Source: Acidobacteriota bacterium
GTDB lineage: Bacteria > Acidobacteriota > UBA6911
Direction of reading: 5' to 3'
DNA length: 64,000 bases
Assembly (NCBI GenBank): GCA_012729555.1
Contig: JAAYCX010000020.1
Location: 14,908 to 78,907, forward strand
Made by a program: the position numbers and the translations under genes. Positions 6,461 to 16,880 of this stretch are shown here, one piece after another. The number at the start of each line of letters is the position of its first letter. The first letter of the stretch is position 1. The notes beneath the pieces were generated by a model, which made no database searches, was not told where the DNA came from, and was given only the letters and a program-made list of their open reading frames with translations.

Positions 6461-7255
6461 ATGAACCGCATCCTGGCCATCGCCGAGAACACCTTCCGCG
6501 AAACGGTCCGCGACAAGATCCTCTACAACCTGATCCTCTTCGCCCTCGTCATGATCGGCAGTTCGCTCGCCCTGGGGCAGCTCACCCTCGGCAACGAGGA
6601 CAAGGTGATCCTCGACCTGGGCCTGGGCGCCATCTCCGTCTTCGGGCTCCTGATCGCCATCTTCATCGGGATCGGCCTGGTCTACAAGGAGCTGGAAAAA
6701 CGGACCGTCTACGCCCTCCTGGCCAAGCCGGTGCGGCGCCACGAACTGATCCTGGGCAAGTACCTCGGCCTCCTCTCGACGCTCGGGGTCAACCTGGCCG
6801 TGATGACGGCGGGGCTCGCCCTGGCGCTCGCTTACACGGGGCGGGCGCCGGCGGGGGCCTACGGGCGCCTCCTGCCGGCCGTGGGCCTCATCTTCCTCTC
6901 GCTCGCCCTGGCCACCGCGCTCGCGCTCCTCTTTTCGACCTTTTCGACGCCGGCCCTGGCCGCCCTCTTCACCTTCTTCCTCTGGGTCATCGGGCATTTC
7001 AACGCCGACCTCCGCCGCTTCGGCGAACTCTCGGGATCGCCCGCCGTCGAGGCTCTCGGCCGCGCGCTCTACTACGTCATCCCCAATTTCGGGAACTTCA
7101 ACCTGATCGACGGCCGTGCCGTCCTGCAGACGGCGGGCTACGCGCGCCCCGTCGAGTGGTGGGCCGTGGGGGGAGCCGGCGCCTACGCCGTCGTCTACAT
7201 CGCCCTCCTGCTGGCCCTCTCGATCCTCATCTTCGCCCGGCGGGACTTCAAATGA
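6461..7255 (+). CDS. ABC-2 family transporter permease
   Basis: Six predicted hydrophobic helices, immediately downstream of the ATPase (10-nt gap). Confidence 0.75.
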   Translation: MNRILAIAENTFRETVRDKILYNLILFALVMIGSSLALGQLTLGNEDKVILDLGLGAISVFGLLIAIFIGIGLVYKELEKRTVYALLAKPVRRHELILGKYLGLLSTLGVNLAVMTAGLALALAYTGRAPAGAYGRLLPAVGLIFLSLALATALALLFSTFSTPALAALFTFFLWVIGHFNADLRRFGELSGSPAVEALGRALYYVIPNFGNFNLIDGRAVLQTAGYARPVEWWAVGGAGAYAVVYIALLLALSILIFARRDFK

Positions 7256-8121
7256 AAGGCGGGGGGGGGGAAACATCGAAGGTGGTGCTCGGCTGCGTCG
7301 GCGCCGCCCTGGCCGCGGCGCTGCTGGTCGGCCCGGTGCAGGACTTCATCGACGCGCGCTCCCCGGCCGGGGAGGAGCCCGACCTCCTCTTCTTCAACTC
7401 CCCCGGCCTGGTCCAGAAGATGGCCCTCGGCTTCGAGCCCCTGCTGGCCGACCTCTACTGGATGCGCACCATCCAGTACTACGGGCGGCGCGACGACGAG
7501 GGGCGGCGGCGGGAGAGCTTCGGAAACCTCTACACCCTCCTCGACATCACCACCACCCTCGACCCGGGACTCCAGGACGCCTACCGCGCCGGGAGCTGCT
7601 TCCTCTCCGAGCCCCCGCCGGTCGGGGCGGGCCGGCCCGACCTGGCCCTCGAGCTCCTCAAGAAGGGGGCGCGGGCGCATCCCCGCGAGTGGCGCCTGGT
7701 CTACGAGCGGGGGTTCGTCCACTACCTCTACCTGAAGGACTACGCCGCCGCGGGGGACACCTGGCTCGAGGCGGGCCGGGTCCCCGGGGCGCCCGAGTGG
7801 CTCGCGGGCCTGGCGGCCATGGCGCTGTCGAAGGGGGGGGCCGAGGAGGTCGCCGTCGCCCTCTGGCGGCGCCAGTACGAGGAGGCGACGAGCGACGCGG
7901 TGCGCGACAACGCCCGCAACCACCTCCACTCGCTCCAGGTCAAGCGGGACCTCGCCGAGCTCAGGGACCGCATCGAGCGCCACCGCGCCGCGACCGGCTC
8001 CTTCCCCCCGAGCCTCCGGACCCCCCGGGACCCGATGGGGACCCCCTACGCCTACGACCCCCGCTCCGGCCGGGTGGAGCTCGACCCGGGGAGCGCCGTC
8101 CGCTTCCTCGACCTCCCCTGA
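7252..8121 (+). CDS. hypothetical membrane-anchored protein, translationally coupled to the ABC-2 permease
   Basis: ATG at 7252 overlaps the permease stop (ATGA); N-terminal hydrophobic anchor (VVLGCVGAALAAALLVG) followed by a helical soluble domain; no recognisable family. Confidence 0.5.
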   Translation: MKGGGGETSKVVLGCVGAALAAALLVGPVQDFIDARSPAGEEPDLLFFNSPGLVQKMALGFEPLLADLYWMRTIQYYGRRDDEGRRRESFGNLYTLLDITTTLDPGLQDAYRAGSCFLSEPPPVGAGRPDLALELLKKGARAHPREWRLVYERGFVHYLYLKDYAAAGDTWLEAGRVPGAPEWLAGLAAMALSKGGAEEVAVALWRRQYEEATSDAVRDNARNHLHSLQVKRDLAELRDRIERHRAATGSFPPSLRTPRDPMGTPYAYDPRSGRVELDPGSAVRFLDLP

Positions 8122-8174
8122 CCCATCATTTTTGTTTATTATCCCGAAATCCTATCCTATAGTCGATGCAGCTT

Positions 8175-8190
8175 CCATTTTCTAAAATGG
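8175..8190. promoter_or_regulatory. perfect 7-bp inverted repeat CCATTTT-CT-AAAATGG upstream of aqpZ
   Basis: Palindrome seen directly in sequence 27 nt upstream of the aqpZ start codon, inside an AT-richer leader. Confidence 0.3.
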
Positions 8191-8216
8191 CTGTATTCCG
8201 ACAAGGAGACTCCGCT

Positions 8217-8909
8217 ATGGGTAAGAAACTGGGCGCCGAATTCATCGGCACGTTCTGGCTCGTGCTCGGCGGCTGCGGCAGCGCGGTCCTGGCGGCCGCC
8301 TTCCCCGACCTGGGGATCGGCTTCGCCGGCGTGGCCCTGGCCTTCGGGCTGACCGTCCTGACCATGGCCTTCGCCATTGGCCACATCTCCGGCTGCCACC
8401 TCAACCCCGCCGTGTCCTTCGGGCTCTGGGCGGGCCGCCGCTTTCCCGGCAGGGACCTGTTCGGGTACATCGTGGCCCAGGTGCTGGGCGGCGCGCTCGC
8501 GGCCCTGGTCCTCTACCTCATCGCCAGCGGGAGCTCGGGCTTCAGCCTGAGCGGCGGGTTCGCCGCCAACGGGTACGGGGAGCATTCCCCCGGCGGGTAC
8601 GCGCTCGGGGCCGCTTTCCTGTGCGAGCTGGTGATGACGTTCATCTTCCTCATCGTCATCATGGGCGCGACCGACAAGCGGGCGCCGCAGGGGTTCGCCC
8701 CCATCGCCATCGGGCTGGCGCTGACGCTGATCCACCTGATCAGCATCCCGGTCACGAACACCTCGGTCAACCCCGCGCGCAGCACCAGCCAGGCGCTCTT
8801 CGTCCAGGGGTGGGCGCTCGCGCAGCTCTGGCTCTTCTGGCTCGCCCCCATCCTGGGCGCGCTCCTGGCGGGCCTCACCTACCGCGGGATTTTCGAGGAC
8901 AAGGCCTGA
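8217..8909 (+). CDS. aqpZ: aquaporin Z (MIP-family water channel)
   Basis: Two NPA boxes (HLNPAVS and SVNPARS), six TM helices; ATG 8217 with AAGGAG at 8204-8209. Confidence 0.9.
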
Positions 8910-8967: not shown

Positions 8968-9015
8968 CCATTCCGTCAAATCATTTGACAGAATGGGGCC
9001 TATTCTGTCAAATCG
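8968..9015. repeat. cluster of three TTCYGTCAAAT(C) motifs (forward, reverse, forward)
   Basis: ttccgtcaaatc 8971-8982, atttgacagaa (reverse complement) 8984-8994, ttctgtcaaatc 9004-9015; lies in the convergent intergenic region; locally AT-richer. Confidence 0.45.
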
Positions 9016-9039
9016 TTGGACGAAATCGGGGGATGGAGC

Positions 9040-11334
9040 CTATTCCGCCATGGTCACGCGGTCGCGCCCGGCGTTCTTGCTGCGGTAAAGGGCCTTGTCG
9101 GCCGCCTCGACGAGCGCCTGGGCGCTGCGGCCGTGGTCGGGGAAGACGGCCACCCCCATCGACGCCGTGATGCGCCCCAGGGGGATGCCGCGGTAGTGGA
9201 CATCCAGGCGCTGGATCGCCTCCTTGAAGAACTCGGCCCGCTGCCGGGTGACGTCGCGGCTCCCCTCGGGCAGGATCAGGGTGAACTCCTCCCCCCCGTA
9301 ACGGCAGGCGATGTCCTCGCCGCGGATGTTGCCCCGCAGCAGCAGCCCCAGCTCCTTCAGCAGCAGGTCCCCCGCCTCGTGCCCGAAGTTGTCGTTGAAG
9401 TACTTGAAGTGGTCGAGGTCGATCATGATCATCCCCAGCGGGCGCTGGTTCCGGGCCGCCCGGCGCAGTTCCAGCTCGAGCGACTCCTCCATGAACCTCC
9501 GGTTGAAGAGCCCCGTCAGCGGGTCGCGGATCGACTGGCTGCGCAGCGTCTCGTGCAGGCGCAGGTTCGACAGCGCCATGGCGATGTGCTCCGACATGGT
9601 GACGGCCAGCCGCTGCTTGCTCTCGGTCATCTGGACGTCGTCCGGCTGCATGAGGTGCAGCATCCCGAGCGCCTCGCTCTGCGCCATCATCGGGATGCAC
9701 ATGTAGCCGGCCGGGGCGGGGTGGTGCACGTGGCGGCAGACCAGGCCGGAGCCCGCGTGCTCGACCCAGTGGATCCGCCCCCGCCGCAGCGCCCAGCATT
9801 CGGCCGGGGCGAAGGACTCCTCCGCCAGCTCCGGGTCCCCCCAGACCGCCGCGGCCTCCACCGAGTCGCGGGAGGAGGAGATGACGTAGAGCGCCCCCAC
9901 CTTCGCCGGGAAGATCTGCTGCGCCACCCGGACGATGGCGCCGTAGGCCTCCTCGGTCGTGAGGCAGGCGCGCAGGATGTCGCCCATCTCGTTGAGGAGG
10001 ACCATCTCGCGCGTCCGCTGCTCCAGCTCCCCCACCCAGGCCTCGAGCTTCTCCTTCGCCTCCTTCAGCTGCGCCTCGGTCTTCTTGCGCGCGGTGATGT
10101 CGCGCGCGATCCCCTGCACCGACACGGCCCTCCCCTCGCGGAAGAGGGGGCGGGTGCTGACCTCCAGGGCGACGCGGCCGCCGTCCTTGGCCACGATCTC
10201 CAGTTCGTAATTCAGGGGGATTTCGCCCGCCACCTGCGGGTCGGTCAGCACTTCCCCCAGGTGGGCGCACTCGGGCGTCAGGAGGTCGGTGAACTTCATC
10301 TCGAGCGCCTCGGAGCGGGTGTAGAGCGCGATCCGCTCGATCGCCCGGTTGATCGACAGGATCCTCCCCTCGAAGTCGTGGGTGTAGATGATGTCGCTGG
10401 CGTTTTCGAACATCTCCCGGTAGATCCCTTCGCGCTCCTTCCGTTCCCCGGTGCCGCTGCGGCGGAAATACTCCCCGGGGTTGCGGAAGATCTCGACCAG
10501 GCGCGGCTCCTGGTGCACCAGGGGGAGAAAATGGGCCCGCACCGCCGGGTGGAGTTCGCTCCCGATCTCCGGGTGCGCCTCCATCCACATGTGCTCCCCC
10601 CGGGCCGCGGCGAGCAGGAGCGTCAGCGAAAGGTACCAGGCGTCCCCCAGCAGGTCCTTCAGCCCCGCCGTCGCGCGCTCCGCCCCGGGGACCCCCAAAA
10701 AGAGGGCCAGGGCGAGGGTGGACACCCCCTCCTCGAACCCGGGGACGCCGGCGGGCCAGGATCCGGAGGAGCGTGTCGTGCCGGCCAGGGCCGAGAGCGC
10801 GTTTTCGATCTCCCCGGCGTCGGGCTCCGGGAGTTCCAGCAGTTCCCTCACCTCGCGCGCGCCGACCCCCAGCTCGCGCAGGGTGCACGCGTGCACCACG
10901 GCGAAATAGGGGGAGGTCGTCGAACGGGAGAGGCGCAGCCGGAGCTTCTCCCTGAAAAGCTCCGGGAGCGGGTTGTCGCAGAAGCCCGCACGGTACCGGC
11001 GCCAGAGGTCTTCGAGGATGTCGGGAAACTCGAGGGCGGGAATGAAGCAGGGGGGTAGGAAACCGATCCGCTCCTCGATCGCGGCGCGGATGCGGGAAGC
11101 GTCCCCGCCGGCGGCCGGGGGCGCGGGCGCGGCCTCCGGGGCGAGTTCCGGTTCCAGGCGCTTCAGCTCCTCGAGCTTCCCCCAGAGGGCTTCCAGTTCG
11201 CCGTCCGTGCTGCCTTCCCGTTCCATTGCGCGATGAACCCGAGTGAGTAGAGCCTGCCCGTGACGCACCAGCGACGACGCATCTTCGGTTTGCTTCATCA
11301 GGGGCGGGGGGAGCGCTGTTTGCCTGAAGGGCAA
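9040..11334 (-). CDS. PAS-GAF-GGDEF diguanylate cyclase (intact GGEEF active site and RxxD I-site)
   Basis: C-terminal GGDEF domain with RGEDIACRYGGEEF; upstream GAF and PAS segments. Start is uncertain: TTG at 11334 or ATG at 11298. Confidence 0.85.
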   Translation of the reverse strand: MPFRQTALPPPLMKQTEDASSLVRHGQALLTRVHRAMEREGSTDGELEALWGKLEELKRLEPELAPEAAPAPPAAGGDASRIRAAIEERIGFLPPCFIPALEFPDILEDLWRRYRAGFCDNPLPELFREKLRLRLSRSTTSPYFAVVHACTLRELGVGAREVRELLELPEPDAGEIENALSALAGTTRSSGSWPAGVPGFEEGVSTLALALFLGVPGAERATAGLKDLLGDAWYLSLTLLLAAARGEHMWMEAHPEIGSELHPAVRAHFLPLVHQEPRLVEIFRNPGEYFRRSGTGERKEREGIYREMFENASDIIYTHDFEGRILSINRAIERIALYTRSEALEMKFTDLLTPECAHLGEVLTDPQVAGEIPLNYELEIVAKDGGRVALEVSTRPLFREGRAVSVQGIARDITARKKTEAQLKEAKEKLEAWVGELEQRTREMVLLNEMGDILRACLTTEEAYGAIVRVAQQIFPAKVGALYVISSSRDSVEAAAVWGDPELAEESFAPAECWALRRGRIHWVEHAGSGLVCRHVHHPAPAGYMCIPMMAQSEALGMLHLMQPDDVQMTESKQRLAVTMSEHIAMALSNLRLHETLRSQSIRDPLTGLFNRRFMEESLELELRRAARNQRPLGMIMIDLDHFKYFNDNFGHEAGDLLLKELGLLLRGNIRGEDIACRYGGEEFTLILPEGSRDVTRQRAEFFKEAIQRLDVHYRGIPLGRITASMGVAVFPDHGRSAQALVEAADKALYRSKNAGRDRVTMAE
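9459..9592. repeat. about 130-bp segment roughly 95% identical to 11816..11949 (paralog gene conversion tract)
   Basis: Manual alignment of both gene segments (both encode MALSNLRLHETLRNQSIRDPLTGLFNR at the start of the GGDEF domain); only about 7 mismatches over about 130 nt. Confidence 0.7.
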
Positions 11335-11391
11335 TTCTGACCCAACTCCCCGGAAAGGCCAAGAAAAAAATGCGTTGGGGGGGAGCCGGCG

Positions 11392-13356
11392 TCAGCTGGC
11401 GACCACCACCGAGTCCCCGCCCCCCGAGCGCGCCCGGCCGACGGCCGCCTCCGCCGAGCGCAGGAGGGCCTCCACGGTCTGCCCGTGATCGGGGAAGAGG
11501 GCCATCCCGACCGACGCGGAGACCCGGTCCCCCTCCCGCGCCCCGGGATACTGCACGTCCATCCCCCGCACCAGGTCCCTCAGCGTCTCGGCCCGCCTCC
11601 GGCCGACGTCGCGGCCGCTGTGGGGAAGGAGCAGCACGAAAGCGTGCCCGCTGAAGCGGCAGGCGACGTCTCCCTTGCGGATCCTGGACTGCAGCCGCGC
11701 GGCGGTCCGGCAGAGGAGGGAGTCCCCGGCGTCGAGCCCCCAGTCTTCGGTCATTTTCTGGAACCGGTCGAGCGCGGCCATGATCACCACCAGCGTCCCC
11801 TGGGTGCGCGCCGCGCGCCGCAGCTCCAGCTCGAGCGCCTCCTCCATGAAGCTGCGGTTGAAGAGCCCGGTCAGCGGGTCGCGGATCGACTGGTTGCGCA
11901 GCGTCTCGTGCAGGCGCAGGTTCGACAGCGCCATGGCGACCCGCTCCCCCATGGCGGTCGCGAGCCGCTGCTTCGCTTCGCCGAGCGGCGTCCCGTCGGC
12001 GTGGGCCAGGTGGAGCACCCCCACCGCCTCGCTCTGGGCCATCATCGGGACGCAGAGGTAGCCGCGCGGAGGGGGGGTCTCCAGGTGCTTGCACAGGAGG
12101 CCGACGCCGGTGTCCTCCACCCAGTGCACCCTCCCCCGGCGCAGGGCCCAGCATTCGTCGGGGGTGAAGGTGGTCGCCATCCGCTCCGCGTCCCCCCACC
12201 CGGCGACCGATTCCACGATGTTGCGGAGCGGGCCCATCACGTAGAGCGCCCCCGCCTCCTCCGGAAAGATCTCCCGGGCGATCCGCACGATCACCTCGTA
12301 GACCTCCTCGGCCGTGAGGCAGGCGCGCAGGATGTCGCCCATCTCGCCGAGCAGCGTCATCTCGCGGGTGCGCTGCTCCAGGTCCCGCACCCAGGCCTCG
12401 AGCCTGCGGTTGGCCGCGGCGAGCTCCCCCTCGGCCCTCTTCCGCTCGCTGACGTCCCGGGCGATCCCCTGGATCCCGTGGGGGCGGCCTTCGCGGAAGA
12501 TGAGACGGTGGCTCACCTCGAAGGTGAAGCGGGCGCCGTCCTTGGCGATGACGTCCAGTTCGGCCGTCATCGGCACCGCGTCGGCGATCTGCCGGTCGAT
12601 CATCCTGCGGGCGGCCGCCCTCGATTCGGGGGCCACCAGCTGGCTGAACCGCATCCGGAGGGCCTCCTCCAGGGAGTATCCCAGCATCCGCTCCGCCGCC
12701 TTGTTCATGGAGGTGATTCTGCCGGAGAGGTCGTGGGTGTAGACCATGTCGTAGGCGTTTTCGAACAGTTCCCGGTAGCGCTCCTCGCTCGCGCGCCGCG
12801 CCTCCTCGGCCAGCGCCCGCTCGGTCACGTCGCGCACGATCGCCAGGCCCCCGATCACCTCCCCCTCCCCCGGGCCGTGGATGGGACCGTAGTACCCCTC
12901 GAACCAGACGCTCGCGCCCCCCGGGGCCGTGTAGCACTTCCCCTTCGAAACGCTCTTCCGCCCCTCGAGCGCCGCACCGATGTTCGCGTCCTCCCCCAGC
13001 TCCTCCAGGAAGGGGCAGGCCAGGAAGGCGGGGCGGCCGAGGACCTCCCCCGCGGCGAGGCCGAACATCCTCTCCATCGCGGGGTTCCAGACCGTGAAGA
13101 ACCCGTCCCGGTCGAAGGCGATGATGCCGTCGACGCTGCTGTCGACGAGCCACCCGAGGAGCTGTTTCTCGCTCTCGAGCGCGCGGACCCTGGCGGGGAC
13201 GGGGGGGCGCTCCGGGGCGCCGGCCGGGGCGGGGGGGGCGCTCGCGGCGCCGCTGGGGGACGGGCGCAGGATGAGGCTGTGCAGGTGCGCGATCTCCTCG
13301 CGCAGCGACTCCAGTTCCTCTGCAAGATCGCTCTTGGGCGTGTCTTTCGGTTCCAT
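11392..13356 (-). CDS. PAS-PAS-GAF protein with degenerate GGDEF domain (SGHAF in place of GGDEF; I-site RKGD retained)
   Basis: Tandem paralog of the downstream gene. Active-site pentapeptide is SGHAF, confirmed on DNA (agcgggcacgctttc read on the minus strand); the RxxD motif is present 5 residues upstream. Confidence 0.85.
   Translation of the reverse strand: MEPKDTPKSDLAEELESLREEIAHLHSLILRPSPSGAASAPPAPAGAPERPPVPARVRALESEKQLLGWLVDSSVDGIIAFDRDGFFTVWNPAMERMFGLAAGEVLGRPAFLACPFLEELGEDANIGAALEGRKSVSKGKCYTAPGGASVWFEGYYGPIHGPGEGEVIGGLAIVRDVTERALAEEARRASEERYRELFENAYDMVYTHDLSGRITSMNKAAERMLGYSLEEALRMRFSQLVAPESRAAARRMIDRQIADAVPMTAELDVIAKDGARFTFEVSHRLIFREGRPHGIQGIARDVSERKRAEGELAAANRRLEAWVRDLEQRTREMTLLGEMGDILRACLTAEEVYEVIVRIAREIFPEEAGALYVMGPLRNIVESVAGWGDAERMATTFTPDECWALRRGRVHWVEDTGVGLLCKHLETPPPRGYLCVPMMAQSEAVGVLHLAHADGTPLGEAKQRLATAMGERVAMALSNLRLHETLRNQSIRDPLTGLFNRSFMEEALELELRRAARTQGTLVVIMAALDRFQKMTEDWGLDAGDSLLCRTAARLQSRIRKGDVACRFSGHAFVLLLPHSGRDVGRRRAETLRDLVRGMDVQYPGAREGDRVSASVGMALFPDHGQTVEALLRSAEAAVGRARSGGGDSVVVAS
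11816..11949. repeat. partner copy of the about 130-bp near-identical tract at 9459..9592
   Basis: See 9459..9592. Confidence 0.7.
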
Positions 13357-13537
13357 GGGATCTCACGCCCCGCTCCGGGGCCGGGTGCCGGGGAGCTCAA
13401 ATGCATTTATATGAAAGGCTTATGCCCCCCCGCACCGCACTCAGGTTATCGTTGGGGGGAGGCGGAACCTTTAGACAAATCGCCTCCGGCGGGGCTCCCG
13501 TTTGTCATCCGCCCCCCGCCCGTATATATTTAATACC

Positions 13538-14410
13538 ATGAAGTACGAAGGGATGATTTACCGGCCTCCCAGCGAGGCCGACAGCCTGATCCTGCAGGTG
13601 GCGGTGGGGTGCTCCTACAACCGCTGCACCTTCTGCCACTCCTTCCGGGGGAAGACCTTCCGCGTCAAGTCGTTCGAGGAGATCCGGGAGGACATCGACG
13701 AGGCCTCCGCCTGCGGCCCGATCCGGCGCGTTTTCCTGGCCGACGGGGACGCGCTGGTGATGACCCAGCCGGAGCTGGTGCGGGTGCTCGGCTACCTCCG
13801 GGAGAAGATCCGCGGGCTGGAGCGGGTGGGGATCTACGCCAACGCCGTCGACATCCTGAAAAAGGAGCCGGAGGAGCTCGAAGAGCTCCGCTCCCTGGGG
13901 CTCGGCATCCTCTACCTGGGGCTGGAATCGGGGAACCCGGAGGTGCTCCGGCGGATCCGCAAAAACGCCACCGCGGAGCAGATGGTCCGGGCGGGAAAGC
14001 GGGTGAAGAGCTCGGGCATCCTCCTCTCGATCACGGTGCTGCTGGGGATCGGCGGGGTCGAGCTGAGCCAGGAGCACGCGCGGGACACCGGCAGGGTCCT
14101 GTCGGAGATGGACCCCGATTTCGTCGGCGCCCTCTCCCTCATCGTCGTCCCCGGCACCCCGATCGAAGAGGACCTCCGGAGCGGCCGCCTGGTCCTCCCC
14201 TCCCCCTTCGGCCTCATCCAGGAGCTGGGGATCATGATCGCCCACACCGACGTCACCCGCTGCTTCTTCGCCTCCAACCACGCCTCCAATTACCTGCCGC
14301 TCAGGATCCGGATGCCGGAGGAAAAGGGGCGCGCCCTCGGCCTCATCCGGGAAGTGCTGGAAAGAAAGGACCCGGAGCTGCTGCGCCCCGAATTCATGCG
14401 GGCCCTGTAA
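13538..14410 (+). CDS. radical SAM domain protein (unusual CX4CX2C cluster spacing)
   Basis: ATG 13538; motif VGCSYNRCTFCHSF read from gtg gcg gtg ggg tgc tcc tac aac cgc tgc acc ttc tgc; glycine-rich SAM-binding region follows. Family not assignable by eye. Confidence 0.7.
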   Translation: MKYEGMIYRPPSEADSLILQVAVGCSYNRCTFCHSFRGKTFRVKSFEEIREDIDEASACGPIRRVFLADGDALVMTQPELVRVLGYLREKIRGLERVGIYANAVDILKKEPEELEELRSLGLGILYLGLESGNPEVLRRIRKNATAEQMVRAGKRVKSSGILLSITVLLGIGGVELSQEHARDTGRVLSEMDPDFVGALSLIVVPGTPIEEDLRSGRLVLPSPFGLIQELGIMIAHTDVTRCFFASNHASNYLPLRIRMPEEKGRALGLIREVLERKDPELLRPEFMRAL

Positions 14411-14476
14411 CTCGCGGGTCGGCCCGGGCCTGTGGTATACTCGATGGGATTGGGAACCGTTCCGGAAAGAAGCGTT

Positions 14477-14881
14477 ATGGGCGCAGGAAAGAAATTCTGG
14501 GTGGGAGGCCTCATCATCGTCGCGGCCCTGGCGTGGCTCGGGTTCGTGGGCTTCCAGGAGAGCAAGGCCTACTACATCACGGTGGACGAGTTCAGCTCGC
14601 TGCGGGGGGAATACGAGGGGAAGCGCTTCAAGCTCGCCGGGGACGTCGTCGAGGGATCGATCGACCGGAGCCGGCCGCAGATGGAGTTCGTCATCTCGAG
14701 CCCCCGGTCGAGCATCCGCGTCCGCTACACCGGCGCGGACATCATCCCCGACACCTTCAAGGACGGGTCGAAGGCCCTGGTGGAAGGGACCGTCGCCCCC
14801 GACGGCGTCTTCGAAGCCCGGCGGATAGAGGCGAAGTGCGCTTCGAAATACGAAGCGGAGTACGACGAGAGAACCTCCTGA
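14477..14881 (+). CDS. ccmE: cytochrome c-type biogenesis heme chaperone CcmE, Cys (CxxxY) variant
   Basis: N-terminal membrane anchor and OB-fold core; heme-binding motif reads AKCASKYEA, with Cys where canonical CcmE has His (HxxxY). Confidence 0.85.
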   Translation: MGAGKKFWVGGLIIVAALAWLGFVGFQESKAYYITVDEFSSLRGEYEGKRFKLAGDVVEGSIDRSRPQMEFVISSPRSSIRVRYTGADIIPDTFKDGSKALVEGTVAPDGVFEARRIEAKCASKYEAEYDERTS

Positions 14882-14894
14882 CTTCAGGGACTTC

Positions 14895-16880
14895 ATGGCC
14901 GATTTCGGAAATTTCTGCCTTCTCCTGGCCCTGTGCCTTTCGCTCTACGCCCTCATCGCCTCGCTGACCGGCGCCTCCCTCGCCCGGCGCCGCGTCGTCT
15001 GGAGCGGGGAGCGCGCGGCGCTCGCCGCCTCGGCGGCCGCCCTCCTCGCCTTCGGCGCCCTCCTCTACCTCATGCTGGCGGACGATTTCGCCACCTCCCA
15101 CGTGGCCAACAACAGCAGCCGCTCGCTCCCCATCCTGTACAAGATCTCGGCCATCTGGGGGGGGCACGACGGCTCGATGCTCCTGTGGGTGTTCTTCACC
15201 GCCCTCCTCTCGGGCCTCGTCATCGTGCAGAACCGCCGCCGCCACCGGGACATGATGCCCTGGGTGGTCGCCGTGCTGATGGTCAACCTCGCCTTCTTCC
15301 TCGCGCTCAACCTCTTTTTGTCCAACCCCTTCGACCAGCTGGTCCGGATCTCGCCCGACGGCGCGACGGCCCCCTTCGTCCCCGCCGACGGGAGGGGGCT
15401 CAACCCGCTGCTCCAGTACTGGGCCATGGTCATCCACCCCCCGATCCTCTACGTGGGCTTCATCGGCTTCGTGGTCCCCTTCGCCTTCGCCGTCGCCGCC
15501 CTCGTCACCCGGCAGCAGGGCAACGCCTGGGTCCGGATCGTCCGGCGCTGGACGCTGGTGGTCTGGCTGTTGCTGGGGATCGGCATCATCCTCGGCGGCA
15601 AGTGGGCCTACGTCGTGCTCGGGTGGGGGGGGTACTGGGGGTGGGACCCGGTGGAGAACGCCTCCCTGATGCCGTGGCTGGTGAGCACCGCTTTCCTCCA
15701 TTCCATCGTCGTGCAGGAGCGGCGCGGGATGCTGAAGGTCTGGAACGTCATCCTGGTCCTCCTCACCTACCTCCTCGGGATCTTCGGGACCTTTCTCACC
15801 CGCAGCGGGATCGTCAATTCGGTGCACGCCTTCGCCGACTCGAACCTGGGAAGGTTCTTCGTCTACTACATGGCCTTCGTGCTCGCCGGCACCCTCCTGC
15901 TCCTGGCCGACCGGCAGCCGTACCTGCGGAGCGAGCGGCGGCTCGACTCGATGATCTCGCGCGAAAGCGCCTTCCTGTTCAACAACCTCGTGCTGGTGGC
16001 CGCCTGTTTCGCCGTGTTCTGGGGCACGATGTTCCCCGCCCTGTCGGAATGGATCCGGGGGACCAAGATCTCGGTCGGCCCCCTCTTCTTCGACAGGATC
16101 AACGTCCCGATCGGTCTGCTCCTGCTCCTGCTGACCGGGATCGGGCCGCTGCTGGCCTGGCGCCGGGCCTCGCCCGCCGCCCTCGGCCGGGCGTTTTTGT
16201 GGCCCGGCGTCGCCGCCGCCCTGGCCCTGGCCGGGCTCCTCGCCGGGGGGCTCCGGAATTTTTACGTGACCGTCTGCCTCACCCTCTGCGCCTTCGTCCT
16301 GGCGACCATCGTCCAGGAGTTCGCCGAAGGCGCCCGGGTACGGATGCGGCAGCACGGGGAACGTTTCCCCGAAGCCCTCGGCCGCCTCGTCCTCCGCAAC
16401 ACCCGCCGCTACGGGGGGTACGTCGTCCACCTCGGCGTGGTGCTCATGTTCGTGGGGTTCGCCGGGAACGCCTTCAACCGGGAGGCCACGCTCCACCTCC
16501 AGACGGGGGAGACGGGGAGGGTGGGCGATTACGCCCTCACCCTGGCCGATTTCCACCAGGGGCGGGAGGCCCTGTACGAGTACGGGCGGGCGGTGATCGA
16601 GGTCACCCGCGACGGCCGGCCGGCCGGCACCCTGACCGCGGAAAAGCGCATCTTCGATTCCGGGGGGCAGACCACCACGACCGTGGGCCTTCGCAGCACC
16701 CCGAAGGAGGACCTGTACGTGGTCTTCACCGGCATCACGGGGGACGCCTTCGAGATCAAGGCGCACGTGAACCCCCTGGTGTTCTGGCTCTGGCTCGGGT
16801 CCGGGATCCTGGTCCTGGGGACCCTCCTGACCCTTTTGAACTCAAAGCGCGGCGGCCGCCCCGGGGAGGCCGTTCGCTGA
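14895..16880 (+). CDS. ccmF: cytochrome c-type biogenesis protein CcmF
   Basis: 661-aa polytopic membrane protein with CcmF/NrfE signature segments (WGGYWGWDPVEN, conserved His residues). Confidence 0.9.
   Translation: MADFGNFCLLLALCLSLYALIASLTGASLARRRVVWSGERAALAASAAALLAFGALLYLMLADDFATSHVANNSSRSLPILYKISAIWGGHDGSMLLWVFFTALLSGLVIVQNRRRHRDMMPWVVAVLMVNLAFFLALNLFLSNPFDQLVRISPDGATAPFVPADGRGLNPLLQYWAMVIHPPILYVGFIGFVVPFAFAVAALVTRQQGNAWVRIVRRWTLVVWLLLGIGIILGGKWAYVVLGWGGYWGWDPVENASLMPWLVSTAFLHSIVVQERRGMLKVWNVILVLLTYLLGIFGTFLTRSGIVNSVHAFADSNLGRFFVYYMAFVLAGTLLLLADRQPYLRSERRLDSMISRESAFLFNNLVLVAACFAVFWGTMFPALSEWIRGTKISVGPLFFDRINVPIGLLLLLLTGIGPLLAWRRASPAALGRAFLWPGVAAALALAGLLAGGLRNFYVTVCLTLCAFVLATIVQEFAEGARVRMRQHGERFPEALGRLVLRNTRRYGGYVVHLGVVLMFVGFAGNAFNREATLHLQTGETGRVGDYALTLADFHQGREALYEYGRAVIEVTRDGRPAGTLTAEKRIFDSGGQTTTTVGLRSTPKEDLYVVFTGITGDAFEIKAHVNPLVFWLWLGSGILVLGTLLTLLNSKRGGRPGEAVR

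What the first reader, a model, noticed from the sequence alone, without database searches (positions are those of the whole stretch)
9040..13356. Tandem PAS-GAF-GGDEF paralogs: one catalytically intact, one with a degenerate active site but a retained inhibitory site
The downstream gene carries RGEDIACRYGGEEF, with both I-site and A-site intact. The upstream paralog carries RKGDVACRFSGHAF, with the RxxD I-site kept and the GG(D/E)EF replaced by SGHAF; this was verified on the DNA. The two genes are co-directional, separated by 57 nt, and share the PAS-GAF-GGDEF domain order and extensive sequence. This suggests an enzyme plus a c-di-GMP-binding regulatory pseudo-enzyme that could heterodimerise.
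Basis: partly seen in the sequence, partly recalled or inferred. Interest (0 to 1): 0.65.

Follow-up and report, generated by a model that had tools for sequence, protein, structure and literature searches.

The report
Active diguanylate cyclase plus dead paralog
Two neighbouring sister genes in an uncultured Acidobacteria genome encode one intact enzyme that makes the bacterial messenger c-di-GMP and one catalytically dead copy that has kept only the messenger-binding site; the pair has been kept together through a long stretch of evolution, so it is a real but fairly ordinary example of an enzyme turned into a sensor.

Summary
Two co-directional minus-strand genes share a PAS-GAF-GGDEF core (54% identity over 467 aa). 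The downstream gene (DN) has RGEDIACRYGGEEF. The upstream gene (UP) has RKGDVACRFSGHAF.

Corrections:
- UP is PAS-PAS-GAF-GGDEF.
- DN carries an extra ~220-aa AhpD/CMD-fold N-terminal domain.
- DN most likely starts at ATG 11226, which makes the intergenic gap 165 nt, not 57.
- UP has lost far more than the GGEEF motif: the equivalents of PleD D327, K332, N335, H340, E370, E371 and R446.

The pair is old and conserved.
- None of 109 UP-family proteins has GG[DE]EF. All 109 keep RxxD and the WspR-R198-like arginine.
- All 115 DN-family proteins keep GGEEF and every catalytic residue.
- The UP GGDEF domain is under purifying selection (dN/dS 0.05-0.5).
- In 22 of 23 informative clade-1 Acidobacteriota loci the DN gene directly follows the UP gene.
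- A more distant clade has the same arrangement at the same chromosomal position.

Best reading: UP is a dead, I-site-retaining paralog that works as a c-di-GMP-binding regulatory partner of the adjacent cyclase. Binding and heterodimerisation are inferred, not shown. This is a new member of a known kind (PopA/PleD, CdgI, PelD, YdaK). Interest is moderate.

The parts
11392..13356 (-). UP gene: 654-aa PAS-PAS-GAF-degenerate-GGDEF protein (coordinates include the stop codon)
   Evidence: ORF. Pfam domains. The identical protein is called on JGI contig Ga0123326_1000045 and 22 further contigs.
12814..13146 (-). UP PAS domain A (residues 71-181)
   Evidence: Pfam PAS_4, residues 71-181. Most orthologs carry one more PAS domain N-terminal to this one.
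12445..12783 (-). UP PAS domain B (residues 192-304), homologous to the single PAS of DN
   Evidence: Pfam PAS 192-302. The BLASTP alignment to DN begins here.
11920..12318 (-). UP GAF domain (residues 347-479)
   Evidence: Pfam GAF, GAF_2 and GAF_3. Invariant Cys, Trp and His residues are shared with DN.
11416..11886 (-). UP degenerate GGDEF domain (residues 491-647)
   Evidence: Pfam GGDEF E = 1.1e-34. Best solved relatives are WspR and PleD, E about 1e-21.
11638..11679 (-). UP primary I-site RKGD followed by the degenerate A-site SGHAF (residues 560-573)
   Evidence: Translation verified. RxxD is present in 109/109 orthologs and GG[DE]EF in 0/109.
11806..11820 (-). UP RRAAR stretch; R517 is the equivalent of the WspR R198 secondary I-site arginine
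   Evidence: Aligned to WspR EWRRSLRE. R517 is present in 109/109 UP and 115/115 DN orthologs. The assignment of R198 as an I-site residue comes from my own knowledge of the WspR structure.
11722..11781 (-). UP MAALDRFQKMTEDWGLDAGD: the degenerate metal-binding and guanine-binding stretch (canonical form xxDxDxFKxxNDxxGHxxGD)
   Evidence: Family frequencies are: the D327 position is A/S/E/T/I and never D, K332 is Q in 103/109, and H340 is L in 81/109.
11227..11391 (-). 165-nt UP-DN intergenic region, non-coding and conserved, with a T7 run and TTGGCC-17-CAGAAT
   Evidence: The DNA alignment with L002-L004 is 84% identical with 1-nt indels. No Rfam match. No terminator-like site and no convincing hairpin.
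9040..11226 (-). DN gene: 728-aa AhpD-like-PAS-GAF-GGDEF diguanylate cyclase, counted from the conserved ATG (the ORF as listed starts at TTG 11334)
   Evidence: for the ORF. The start is inferred from about 730-aa orthologs.
10444..11109 (-). DN N-terminal all-alpha AhpD/CMD-fold domain without the CxxC motif
   Evidence: AlphaFold2 model, mean pLDDT 88.9. The top 30 Foldseek PDB hits are all AhpD/CMD-fold proteins, probability 0.54-1.00, target TM-score 0.31-0.68, 0.54-0.68 for the top 27. The Pfam CMD hit is below its cut-off, 19.1 bits against 23.
10084..10422 (-). DN PAS domain
   Evidence: Pfam PAS and PAS_4, residues 305-417 of the 764-aa ORF.
9565..9963 (-). DN GAF domain
   Evidence: Pfam GAF families. 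AlphaFold2 model, mean pLDDT 89.3, a canonical GAF fold.
9058..9531 (-). DN intact GGDEF domain
   Evidence: Pfam GGDEF E = 1.6e-47. All catalytic residues are conserved in 115/115 orthologs, apart from the guanine-binding D344 equivalent, which is D in 114/115.
9283..9324 (-). DN I-site RGED followed by the A-site GGEEF
   Evidence: Translation verified. GGEEF is present in 115/115 and RxxD in 115/115 orthologs.

Best explanation
UP and DN form a conserved two-gene c-di-GMP signalling module in a lineage of Acidobacteriota.

DN is a working diguanylate cyclase. It is controlled by an AhpD-like domain, a PAS domain and a GAF domain, and it is subject to product inhibition through its own I-site.

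UP descends from an old duplication of the same PAS-GAF-GGDEF core. It can no longer bind metal or the GTP phosphates, so it cannot make c-di-GMP. It has kept a complete WspR-type inhibitory site (R560xxD563 plus R517).

The most likely role of UP is a c-di-GMP-binding regulatory partner of DN. It would read the product of DN, and its own PAS and GAF inputs, and feed back on DN. Two routes are possible. One is mixed dimers formed through the nearly identical signalling helices; such a dimer has only one catalytic half-site and so cannot make c-di-GMP. The other is c-di-GMP dimers bridging the I-sites of the two proteins.

Shown by sequence: loss of the catalytic residues, retention of the I-site, purifying selection, and conserved adjacency. 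Inferred: c-di-GMP binding, the physical contact, and the direction of regulation.
For: - Residue mapping onto WspR and PleD.
- Family statistics. UP family: GG[DE]EF in 0/109, RxxD in 109/109 (RKGD in 107), R517 in 109/109, R446 replaced by G in 108/109, K332 replaced by Q in 103/109. DN family: GGEEF, RxxD and all catalytic residues in 115/115 (the guanine-binding D344 equivalent in 114/115).
- Divergence between the families is concentrated in the GGDEF domain: 10 fixed switches and 23 positions conserved in DN only, out of 157. The PAS-GAF and GAF-GGDEF helices keep 88-89% consensus identity.
- dN/dS of the UP GGDEF domain is 0.05-0.50.
- DN directly follows UP in 22 of 23 informative clade-1 loci, and in a second clade at the same CcmF-CcmE ... 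orf7156 position. The same holds for the distant short variant P0120.
- The degenerate genes of both clades form one clade in a neighbour-joining tree (73/100 bootstraps; clade-1 UP 100/100).
[quoted passage not shown] PopA, PelD and YdaK are I-site receptors (PMC10333796, PMC5422440).
Against:
- The intergenic gap is 165 nt here and 159-538 nt in clade-1 orthologs. It contains a promoter-like TTGGCC-17-CAGAAT, so the genes may not be co-transcribed or made in fixed proportion.
- One locus (L016) has UP without DN within 6 kb.
- Three family-specific fixed differences sit at the start of the C-terminal GAF helix (A468/T579, position 470/581 with family consensus A versus S (the window UP has G), V473/I584). 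These could equally encode homodimer specificity.
- Conserved adjacency is partly explained by the general collinearity of this chromosomal region.
Confidence: 0.5

Rival explanations
1. UP is a stand-alone c-di-GMP effector of the PopA or PelD type. It binds c-di-GMP at its I-site and acts on an unidentified third-party target. Its position next to DN reflects only the duplication history and perhaps a local supply of ligand, not physical contact with DN.
For: I-site invariance and purifying selection fit this reading equally well. PopA arose from a PleD-like cyclase and acts on other proteins (PMC10333796). The long, promoter-containing intergenic region allows independent expression. L016 keeps UP without DN. 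UP has its own extra PAS domains.
Against: UP has no recognisable output domain. The pairing survives in 22 of 23 loci and in a second clade. The dimerisation and signalling helices remain almost identical to those of DN.
Confidence: 0.3
2. UP does not bind c-di-GMP. The RKGD stretch is conserved for structural reasons. UP acts purely as a PAS/GAF sensor or scaffold that modulates DN or other proteins.
For: No binding has been measured. The PleD R390 position is not Arg in either paralog (T591 in UP, F702 in DN), so the site is not PleD-like in every respect.
Against: All three Arg/Asp residues that define a WspR-type site (R517, R560, D563) are present in 109/109 UP orthologs, while the mean conservation of the surrounding domain is only 0.76. 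Every tested degenerate GGDEF protein with an intact RxxD that I found in the literature binds c-di-GMP (PMC5635695, PMC5422440, PMC10333796).
Confidence: 0.1
3. UP retains weak or altered nucleotidyl cyclase activity despite its non-canonical motif.
For: The guanine-contacting positions are partly kept in the family (N335 equivalent in 68/109, D344 equivalent in 98/109).
Against: Both motif glutamates, the metal Asp, K332 and R446 are gone in essentially all members. The window protein also lacks N335.
Confidence: 0.03
4. UP is a decaying, non-functional duplicate.
For: Its GGDEF domain evolves faster than that of DN at the protein level: dN is higher in all 11 pairs compared, 1.3- to 8-fold and typically 2-4-fold.
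Against: The reading frame is intact in more than 100 orthologs at 59-97% identity. dN/dS is below 0.5 in every comparison. The sensor domains are as conserved as those of DN.
Confidence: 0.02

Closest known systems
PopA / PleD of Caulobacter (a degenerate-GGDEF I-site receptor derived from a cyclase of the same architecture)
   Same: An active cyclase and a paralog with the same domain order. The paralog has lost the GGDEF motif but kept RxxD, and is read as a c-di-GMP receptor (PMC10333796).
   Different: As far as I know, PopA and PleD are not adjacent genes. Their input domains are receiver domains, not PAS and GAF. PopA has known partners, whereas UP has none identified. In this case the two genes have stayed side by side across a whole lineage.
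E. coli CdgI (YeaI), with the active cyclases DgcT and DgcX
   Same: Degenerate A-site and intact I-site. [quoted passage not shown] Its authors proposed inhibition by heteromer formation, modulated by c-di-GMP (PMC5635695).
   Different: CdgI is a membrane protein with a different sensor domain. The source does not report it next to its active relatives. Its function is still unknown.
PelD (Pseudomonas aeruginosa), YdaK (Bacillus subtilis), SgmT (Myxococcus xanthus): degenerate-GGDEF receptors
   Same: The GGDEF fold is kept, catalysis is lost, and RxxD is needed for function or binding (PMC10333796, PMC5422440, PMC3509222).
   Different: Those proteins sit in exopolysaccharide operons or are fused to a kinase, so they have an obvious output. 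UP has only sensor domains and an active paralog as its neighbour.
WspR and PleD product inhibition through the I-site
   Same: Both UP and DN carry RxxD five residues ahead of the A-site position, plus the Arg equivalent to WspR R198. In WspR and PleD, intercalated c-di-GMP dimers bridge GGDEF domains into an inactive arrangement (my own knowledge of those structures).
   Different: In this pair one of the two bridged domains would belong to a catalytically dead subunit. The PleD R390 position is not conserved.
AhpD / carboxymuconolactone decarboxylase (CMD) fold proteins
   Same: The N-terminal domain of DN is predicted to adopt this all-alpha fold.
   Different: The catalytic CxxC motif is replaced (SPYF), only the His is kept, and the Pfam score is below the gathering threshold. 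I found no paper that mentions carboxymuconolactone decarboxylase, GGDEF and sensor domain together.

Membership tests
Active GGDEF diguanylate cyclase - applied to DN | GGDEF-domain fold | tested here: met
   Pfam PF00990 E = 1.6e-47. NCBIfam TIGR00254 E = 1.6e-52.
Active GGDEF diguanylate cyclase - applied to DN | GG[DE]EF A-site with both acidic residues, metal Asp (PleD D327), K332, guanine contacts N335 and D344, phosphate contacts K442 and R446 | tested here: met
   MIDLDHFKYFNDNFGHEAGD ... RYGGEEF ... YRSKNAGRD. Each of these positions is conserved in 115/115 orthologs, apart from the D344 equivalent at 114/115.
Active GGDEF diguanylate cyclase - applied to DN | Makes c-di-GMP from GTP | not testable with these tools
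   Needs an enzyme assay.
Active GGDEF diguanylate cyclase - applied to UP | GG[DE]EF A-site and the metal-binding and phosphate-binding residues | tested here: not met
   SGHAF. In the window UP the changes are D327 to A, K332 to Q, N335 to T, H340 to L, E370 to H, E371 to A, R446 to G. GG[DE]EF is present in 0/109 orthologs.
Degenerate-GGDEF I-site c-di-GMP receptor (PopA, PelD, CdgI, YdaK kind) - applied to UP | GGDEF fold retained while the A-site is degenerate | tested here: met
   Pfam GGDEF E = 1.1e-34 over profile positions 2-159 of 161. PDB relatives WspR and PleD, E about 1e-21.
Degenerate-GGDEF I-site c-di-GMP receptor (PopA, PelD, CdgI, YdaK kind) - applied to UP | RxxD five residues upstream of the A-site position, conserved among orthologs | tested here: met
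   RKGD-VACRF-SGHAF. R present in 109/109 and D in 109/109.
Degenerate-GGDEF I-site c-di-GMP receptor (PopA, PelD, CdgI, YdaK kind) - applied to UP | A secondary arginine that completes the site | tested here: met
   R517 aligns with WspR R198 and is present in 109/109 orthologs. The PleD R390 position is not Arg.
Degenerate-GGDEF I-site c-di-GMP receptor (PopA, PelD, CdgI, YdaK kind) - applied to UP | Binds c-di-GMP, with binding lost in RxxD mutants | not testable with these tools
   Needs DRaCALA or ITC on purified protein.
Degenerate-GGDEF I-site c-di-GMP receptor (PopA, PelD, CdgI, YdaK kind) - applied to UP | A defined output or partner | not tested
   No output domain found. DN is proposed as the partner from conserved adjacency only.
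AhpD/CMD family - applied to the DN N-terminal domain | AhpD-like all-alpha fold | tested here: met
   Model pLDDT 88.9. The top 30 Foldseek PDB hits are all AhpD/CMD proteins.
AhpD/CMD family - applied to the DN N-terminal domain | Sequence membership (Pfam gathering score) and the catalytic CxxC motif | tested here: not met
   CMD scores 19.1 bits against a cut-off of 23. The motif region reads SPYF..H.C in orthologs. The alignment of this motif to CxxC was made by eye.
DosS/DosT-type haem-binding GAF - applied to the GAF domains | Proximal His at the DosT H147 position, and closest structural similarity to DosS/DosT GAF-A | tested here: inconclusive
   phmmer's best PDB hit is DosT GAF-A, but only over the C-terminal 60 residues (E = 1.7e-4). 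By my numbering of the PDB chain, the position aligned to DosT H147 is His in 93% of the DN family and 53% of the UP family, and is Glu in the window UP. Foldseek's top hits are generic GAFs (PtsP, Lcd1, phytochromes, fRMsr), not DosS/DosT.

The most novel reading that the evidence does not exclude
UP and DN form an obligate hetero-oligomeric cyclase in which the dead subunit is the dedicated allosteric and sensory subunit. Its I-site and its extra PAS domains would set the activity of the single type of catalytic subunit, much as a pseudokinase controls its kinase partner. This division of labour would have been fixed early in a lineage of Acidobacteriota. As far as I know, it would be the first conserved enzyme/pseudo-enzyme pair described for GGDEF proteins.
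Probability: 0.25. Interest if true: 0.6.

Novelty: new member of a known kind. Interest (0 to 1): 0.38.

Why it matters
Catalytically dead GGDEF domains that keep the inhibitory site are an accepted class of c-di-GMP receptors, so the principle is not new.

This case adds three things:
- A large, previously unnamed family in Acidobacteriota, a phylum in which I found no c-di-GMP study of these proteins. More than 100 clusters at 90% identity belong to it.
- A dead copy that has stayed directly next to its active sister gene over deep divergence.
- An active partner that carries an AhpD-fold sensor domain, which I found no report of in cyclases.

Because both partners are defined by position and are soluble, the pair is a convenient natural system for testing an old suggestion: that degenerate GGDEF proteins regulate active cyclases through mixed oligomers or shared c-di-GMP bridges.

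Tried and rejected
1. A homolog search with the DN N-terminal domain alone found nothing, because low-complexity words swamped the candidate list. The full-length search was used instead.
2. Sequence search of the DN N-terminal domain against the PDB gave only a meaningless hit. The fold was identified only through a structure prediction.
3. Two of my first sub-range references were out of frame and returned nothing (second protein). They were repeated correctly.
4. Haem-GAF idea: a weak DosT match was not backed by the fold search. It stays open.
5. fRMsr-like redox-GAF idea, based on the conserved cysteines: fRMsr appears only among many generic GAF hits, so there is no specific support.
6. 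c-di-GMP riboswitch or other RNA element in the intergenic regions: no Rfam match at E <= 1.
7. Terminator between the genes: none found by the scan, and the candidate hairpins fold no better than shuffled sequence.
9. Pseudogene reading: rejected.
10. TTG 11334 and ATG 11298 as the DN start: rejected. ATG 11298 is absent in L003 and L004, and 1-nt indels break the reading frame.
11. NCBIfam gives only domain-level matches and no named family for either protein.
Full report
**What is there.** The region holds two co-directional genes on the minus strand.
- UP: 11392-13356, 654 aa.
- DN: the ORF as listed runs 9040-11334, 764 aa from a TTG.

Pfam finds two PAS domains, a GAF and a GGDEF domain in UP. 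It finds PAS, GAF and GGDEF in DN, plus a sub-threshold CMD hit in the first 300 residues. BLASTP of one against the other gives 54% identity over 467 residues, E = 6e-179, covering PAS-GAF-GGDEF.

The window matches a 102,863-bp JGI metagenome contig (sample 3300009647), and the same UP protein occurs on 23 contigs. The closest named relatives are Acidobacteria metagenome-assembled genomes.

**Corrections to the observation.**
- Start of DN. About 115 DN orthologs are close to 730 aa and begin MERERR..ELESLWEKLEDLKRLE. That Met is ATG 11226 here. In the three closest genomes the stretch between the UP stop and this ATG is 84% identical at the DNA level, but it carries 1-nt insertions and a 6-nt deletion, and it lacks the ATG at 11298. 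It is therefore non-coding. The intergenic distance is 165 nt, not 57. In clade-1 orthologs it is 159-538 nt.
- Domain order. UP has an extra PAS domain, and most UP orthologs (about 766 aa) have two extra. The window protein and a few others lack the first one through an in-frame difference.
- DN N-terminus. DN has a conserved N-terminal domain of about 220 residues. An AlphaFold2 model of it (pLDDT 88.9) matches only AhpD/carboxymuconolactone-decarboxylase-fold proteins among its top 30 PDB hits. The CxxC of that family is not present.

**How dead is UP?** The PDB search aligns the UP GGDEF domain to WspR and PleD (E about 1e-21). In PleD numbering the window UP has:
- D327 (metal) changed to A
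- K332 changed to Q
- N335 (guanine) changed to T
- H340 changed to L
- G368 changed to S
- E370 (metal) changed to H
- E371 changed to A
- K442 changed to R
- R446 (phosphate) changed to G

The functional assignment of these residues is from my own knowledge of the PleD and WspR structures.

By contrast, the I-site is complete. R560-K-G-D563 lies five residues ahead of the A-site position. R517, in ELRRAAR, aligns with WspR R198, the arginine that completes the site in WspR.

**Is this a lineage-wide state?** I aligned the shared core of 109 UP-family and 115 DN-family proteins.

UP family:
- GG[DE]EF in 0/109, with 32 different pentapeptides (SGQTF, SGHTF, SNQTY and others).
- The metal-Asp position is A/S/E/T/I and never D.
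- K332 replaced by Q in 103/109.
- R446 replaced by G in 108/109.
- R560, G562, D563, R567 and R517 each present in 109/109.

DN family:
- GGEEF in 115/115 and RxxD in 115/115.
- Every catalytic residue conserved in 115/115, apart from the D344 equivalent at 114/115.

Divergence between the families is concentrated in the GGDEF domain: 10 fixed switches and 23 positions conserved only in DN, out of 157. Consensus identity between the families is 0.51 for GGDEF, 0.61 for PAS and 0.68 for GAF. It is 0.88 and 0.89 for the PAS-GAF and GAF-GGDEF connecting helices.

Nei-Gojobori dN/dS for the UP GGDEF domain is 0.05-0.50 in the ten informative pairs (dS was saturated in the eleventh). Its dN exceeds that of the DN GGDEF domain in all eleven pairs, 1.3- to 8-fold and typically 2-4-fold. 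So the UP domain is constrained, but less tightly than the active one.

**Is the pairing conserved?** A scan of one genome per species returned 77 loci.
- In 22 of 23 informative loci of the closer clade (UP 61-96% identical to the window), a DN-type gene directly follows the UP-type gene on the same strand. That gene has the AhpD-like domain and GGEEF. The exception is L016.
- The whole neighbourhood is collinear: CcmF, CcmE, a divergently transcribed radical-SAM gene, UP, DN, then the homolog of window ORF 7156-8121. A distant short variant, P0120, shows the same context on its 137,908-bp contig.
- In a more distant clade (L020-L027, L030) the same chromosomal position, between CcmE and orf7156, holds a first gene with a degenerate GGDEF domain. 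Its A-site reads GAEKF, GADKF or GGEKF, its I-site RKED, and EVD replaces DxD. An active GGEEF paralog follows it. In this clade both genes carry the AhpD-like domain.
- In a neighbour-joining tree the degenerate genes of both clades group together (73/100 bootstraps). Clade-1 UP is recovered in 100/100, and the whole Acidobacteriota group in 100/100, with active single-copy outgroups.

Catalysis was therefore probably lost once, early, and the pair has been kept since. The tree is distance-based and the 73% support is moderate.

**Mechanism.** DN has everything expected of an active, product-inhibited cyclase. UP cannot be one. Its invariant I-site, in a domain that is otherwise the least conserved part of the protein, argues that nucleotide binding at this site is its selected function. 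This is as in PopA and PelD (PMC10333796), YdaK (PMC5422440), SgmT (PMC3509222) and CdgI (PMC5635695).

UP has no output domain, so it must act through protein contacts, and the conserved neighbour DN is the obvious candidate. A GGDEF cyclase needs two GTP-loaded domains, a point also made in PMC5635695. A UP:DN mixed dimer would therefore be inactive. Alternatively, c-di-GMP dimers could bridge the I-sites of UP and DN, as they bridge subunits in inhibited WspR and PleD (my own knowledge). Either way UP would tune DN output according to c-di-GMP level and its own PAS inputs.

The near-identity of the connecting helices fits this model but does not prove it. Three fixed family-specific differences lie at the start of the last GAF helix and could just as well enforce homodimers. 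I put 0.5 on a functional UP-DN partnership, 0.3 on UP as an independent receptor, and the rest on minor rivals.

**Inputs.** The GAF domains of both paralogs share invariant Cys, Trp and His residues. A weak sequence match to the haem GAF of DosT suggested a gas or redox sensor, but the predicted structure matches generic GAF domains best. The ligand is unknown. The AhpD-like domain lacks the redox CxxC, so it is probably a ligand-binding or protein-binding module rather than a peroxidase.

**Transcription.** No terminator-like site lies between the genes and no known RNA family matches. The conserved intergenic DNA contains a T7 run and TTGGCC-17-CAGAAT. Whether DN has its own promoter is open.

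**Comparison and novelty.** The closest analogues are PopA/PleD (same architecture, one copy dead with the I-site kept) and CdgI (binds c-di-GMP and contacts active GGDEF domains). This case is the same kind of thing. Three points are new: the family itself, which is unnamed and gets only domain-level matches in NCBIfam; its host phylum; and its strict and old adjacency to the active sister gene together with the AhpD-fold sensor on the active partner. Literature searches found no description of such a pair or of that domain fusion, but the library is incomplete. I rate it a new member of a known kind, of moderate interest.

Noticed in passing
window 13147-13356 (UP N-terminus), compared with P0002, L002 and most orthologs: The window UP (654 aa) lacks the first of the three PAS domains that most orthologs carry (about 766 aa). 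P0002 is 96% identical elsewhere but is 770 aa. The short form recurs in P0001 (15 contigs) and in the distant P0115-P0120, so it is a real variant and not an assembly error.
   Followed up: partly
window 13502-14410 (+): A 302-aa radical-SAM gene is transcribed divergently from UP. It is 75-97% identical at that position in every clade-1 locus where it was found, and it is absent from the second clade. It has only sub-threshold matches to the cores of B12-type radical-SAM methyltransferases. A functional link to the GGDEF pair is possible but untested.
   Followed up: partly
window 13267-13332 (-) in UP and 11149-11226 (-) in DN: Both paralogs begin with a similar short amphipathic helix (UP DLAEELESLREEIAHLHSLIL, DN GELEALWGKLEELKRLEPEL), ahead of otherwise unrelated N-terminal modules. 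It is conserved in both families and could be a shared docking or zipper element.
   Followed up: no
window 10444-11109 (-): The sensor domain at the N-terminus of the active cyclase has an AhpD/CMD fold, with CxxC replaced by SxxF and the His kept. In the second clade the degenerate paralog carries it as well. I found no paper that mentions carboxymuconolactone decarboxylase, GGDEF and sensor domain together.
   Followed up: yes
window 11227-11391: The UP-DN intergenic DNA is as conserved as the coding sequence among the four closest genomes (84% identical). It contains a T7 run and a promoter-like TTGGCC-17-CAGAAT. There is no Rfam match and no convincing hairpin.
   Followed up: partly
window 9565-9963 and 11920-12318 (GAF domains): Three Cys, one Trp and two His are invariant across both paralog families (ECWALRRGR.H, LxC(K/R)H, YxC(V/I)PMM). 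That is an unusual level of conservation for a GAF pocket. The ligand is unknown. The haem (DosT-like) and fRMsr-like ideas were neither confirmed nor excluded.
   Followed up: partly
L016 8000-14259; L010 8583-10888; L022 7952-10317: L016 has a UP-type gene but no DN-type gene within 6 kb downstream. In L010 and L022 the DN-type gene is split into two overlapping ORFs, from either a frameshift or an assembly error.
   Followed up: no
L021, L023, L030 (second clade): In these loci 2.4-3.3 kb of other sequence lies between the degenerate gene and the active gene, so adjacency is looser in that clade. I did not examine the inserted genes.
   Followed up: no
window 9008-13366 (-) and other long overlapping ORFs: A 1452-aa ORF spanning both genes in another frame, and several ORFs of 600-680 aa on the opposite strand, are artefacts of the roughly 70% G+C content and are not genes.
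   Followed up: yes
window 14432-16880 (+) and 8166-8909 (+): The flanking genes are cytochrome c maturation genes CcmE and CcmF on one side and an aquaporin-type MIP channel on the other (convergent with DN). The ccm side is collinear across the whole lineage. The aquaporin was matched, beyond the window's own contig, only as a 50-residue fragment in L004.
   Followed up: partly
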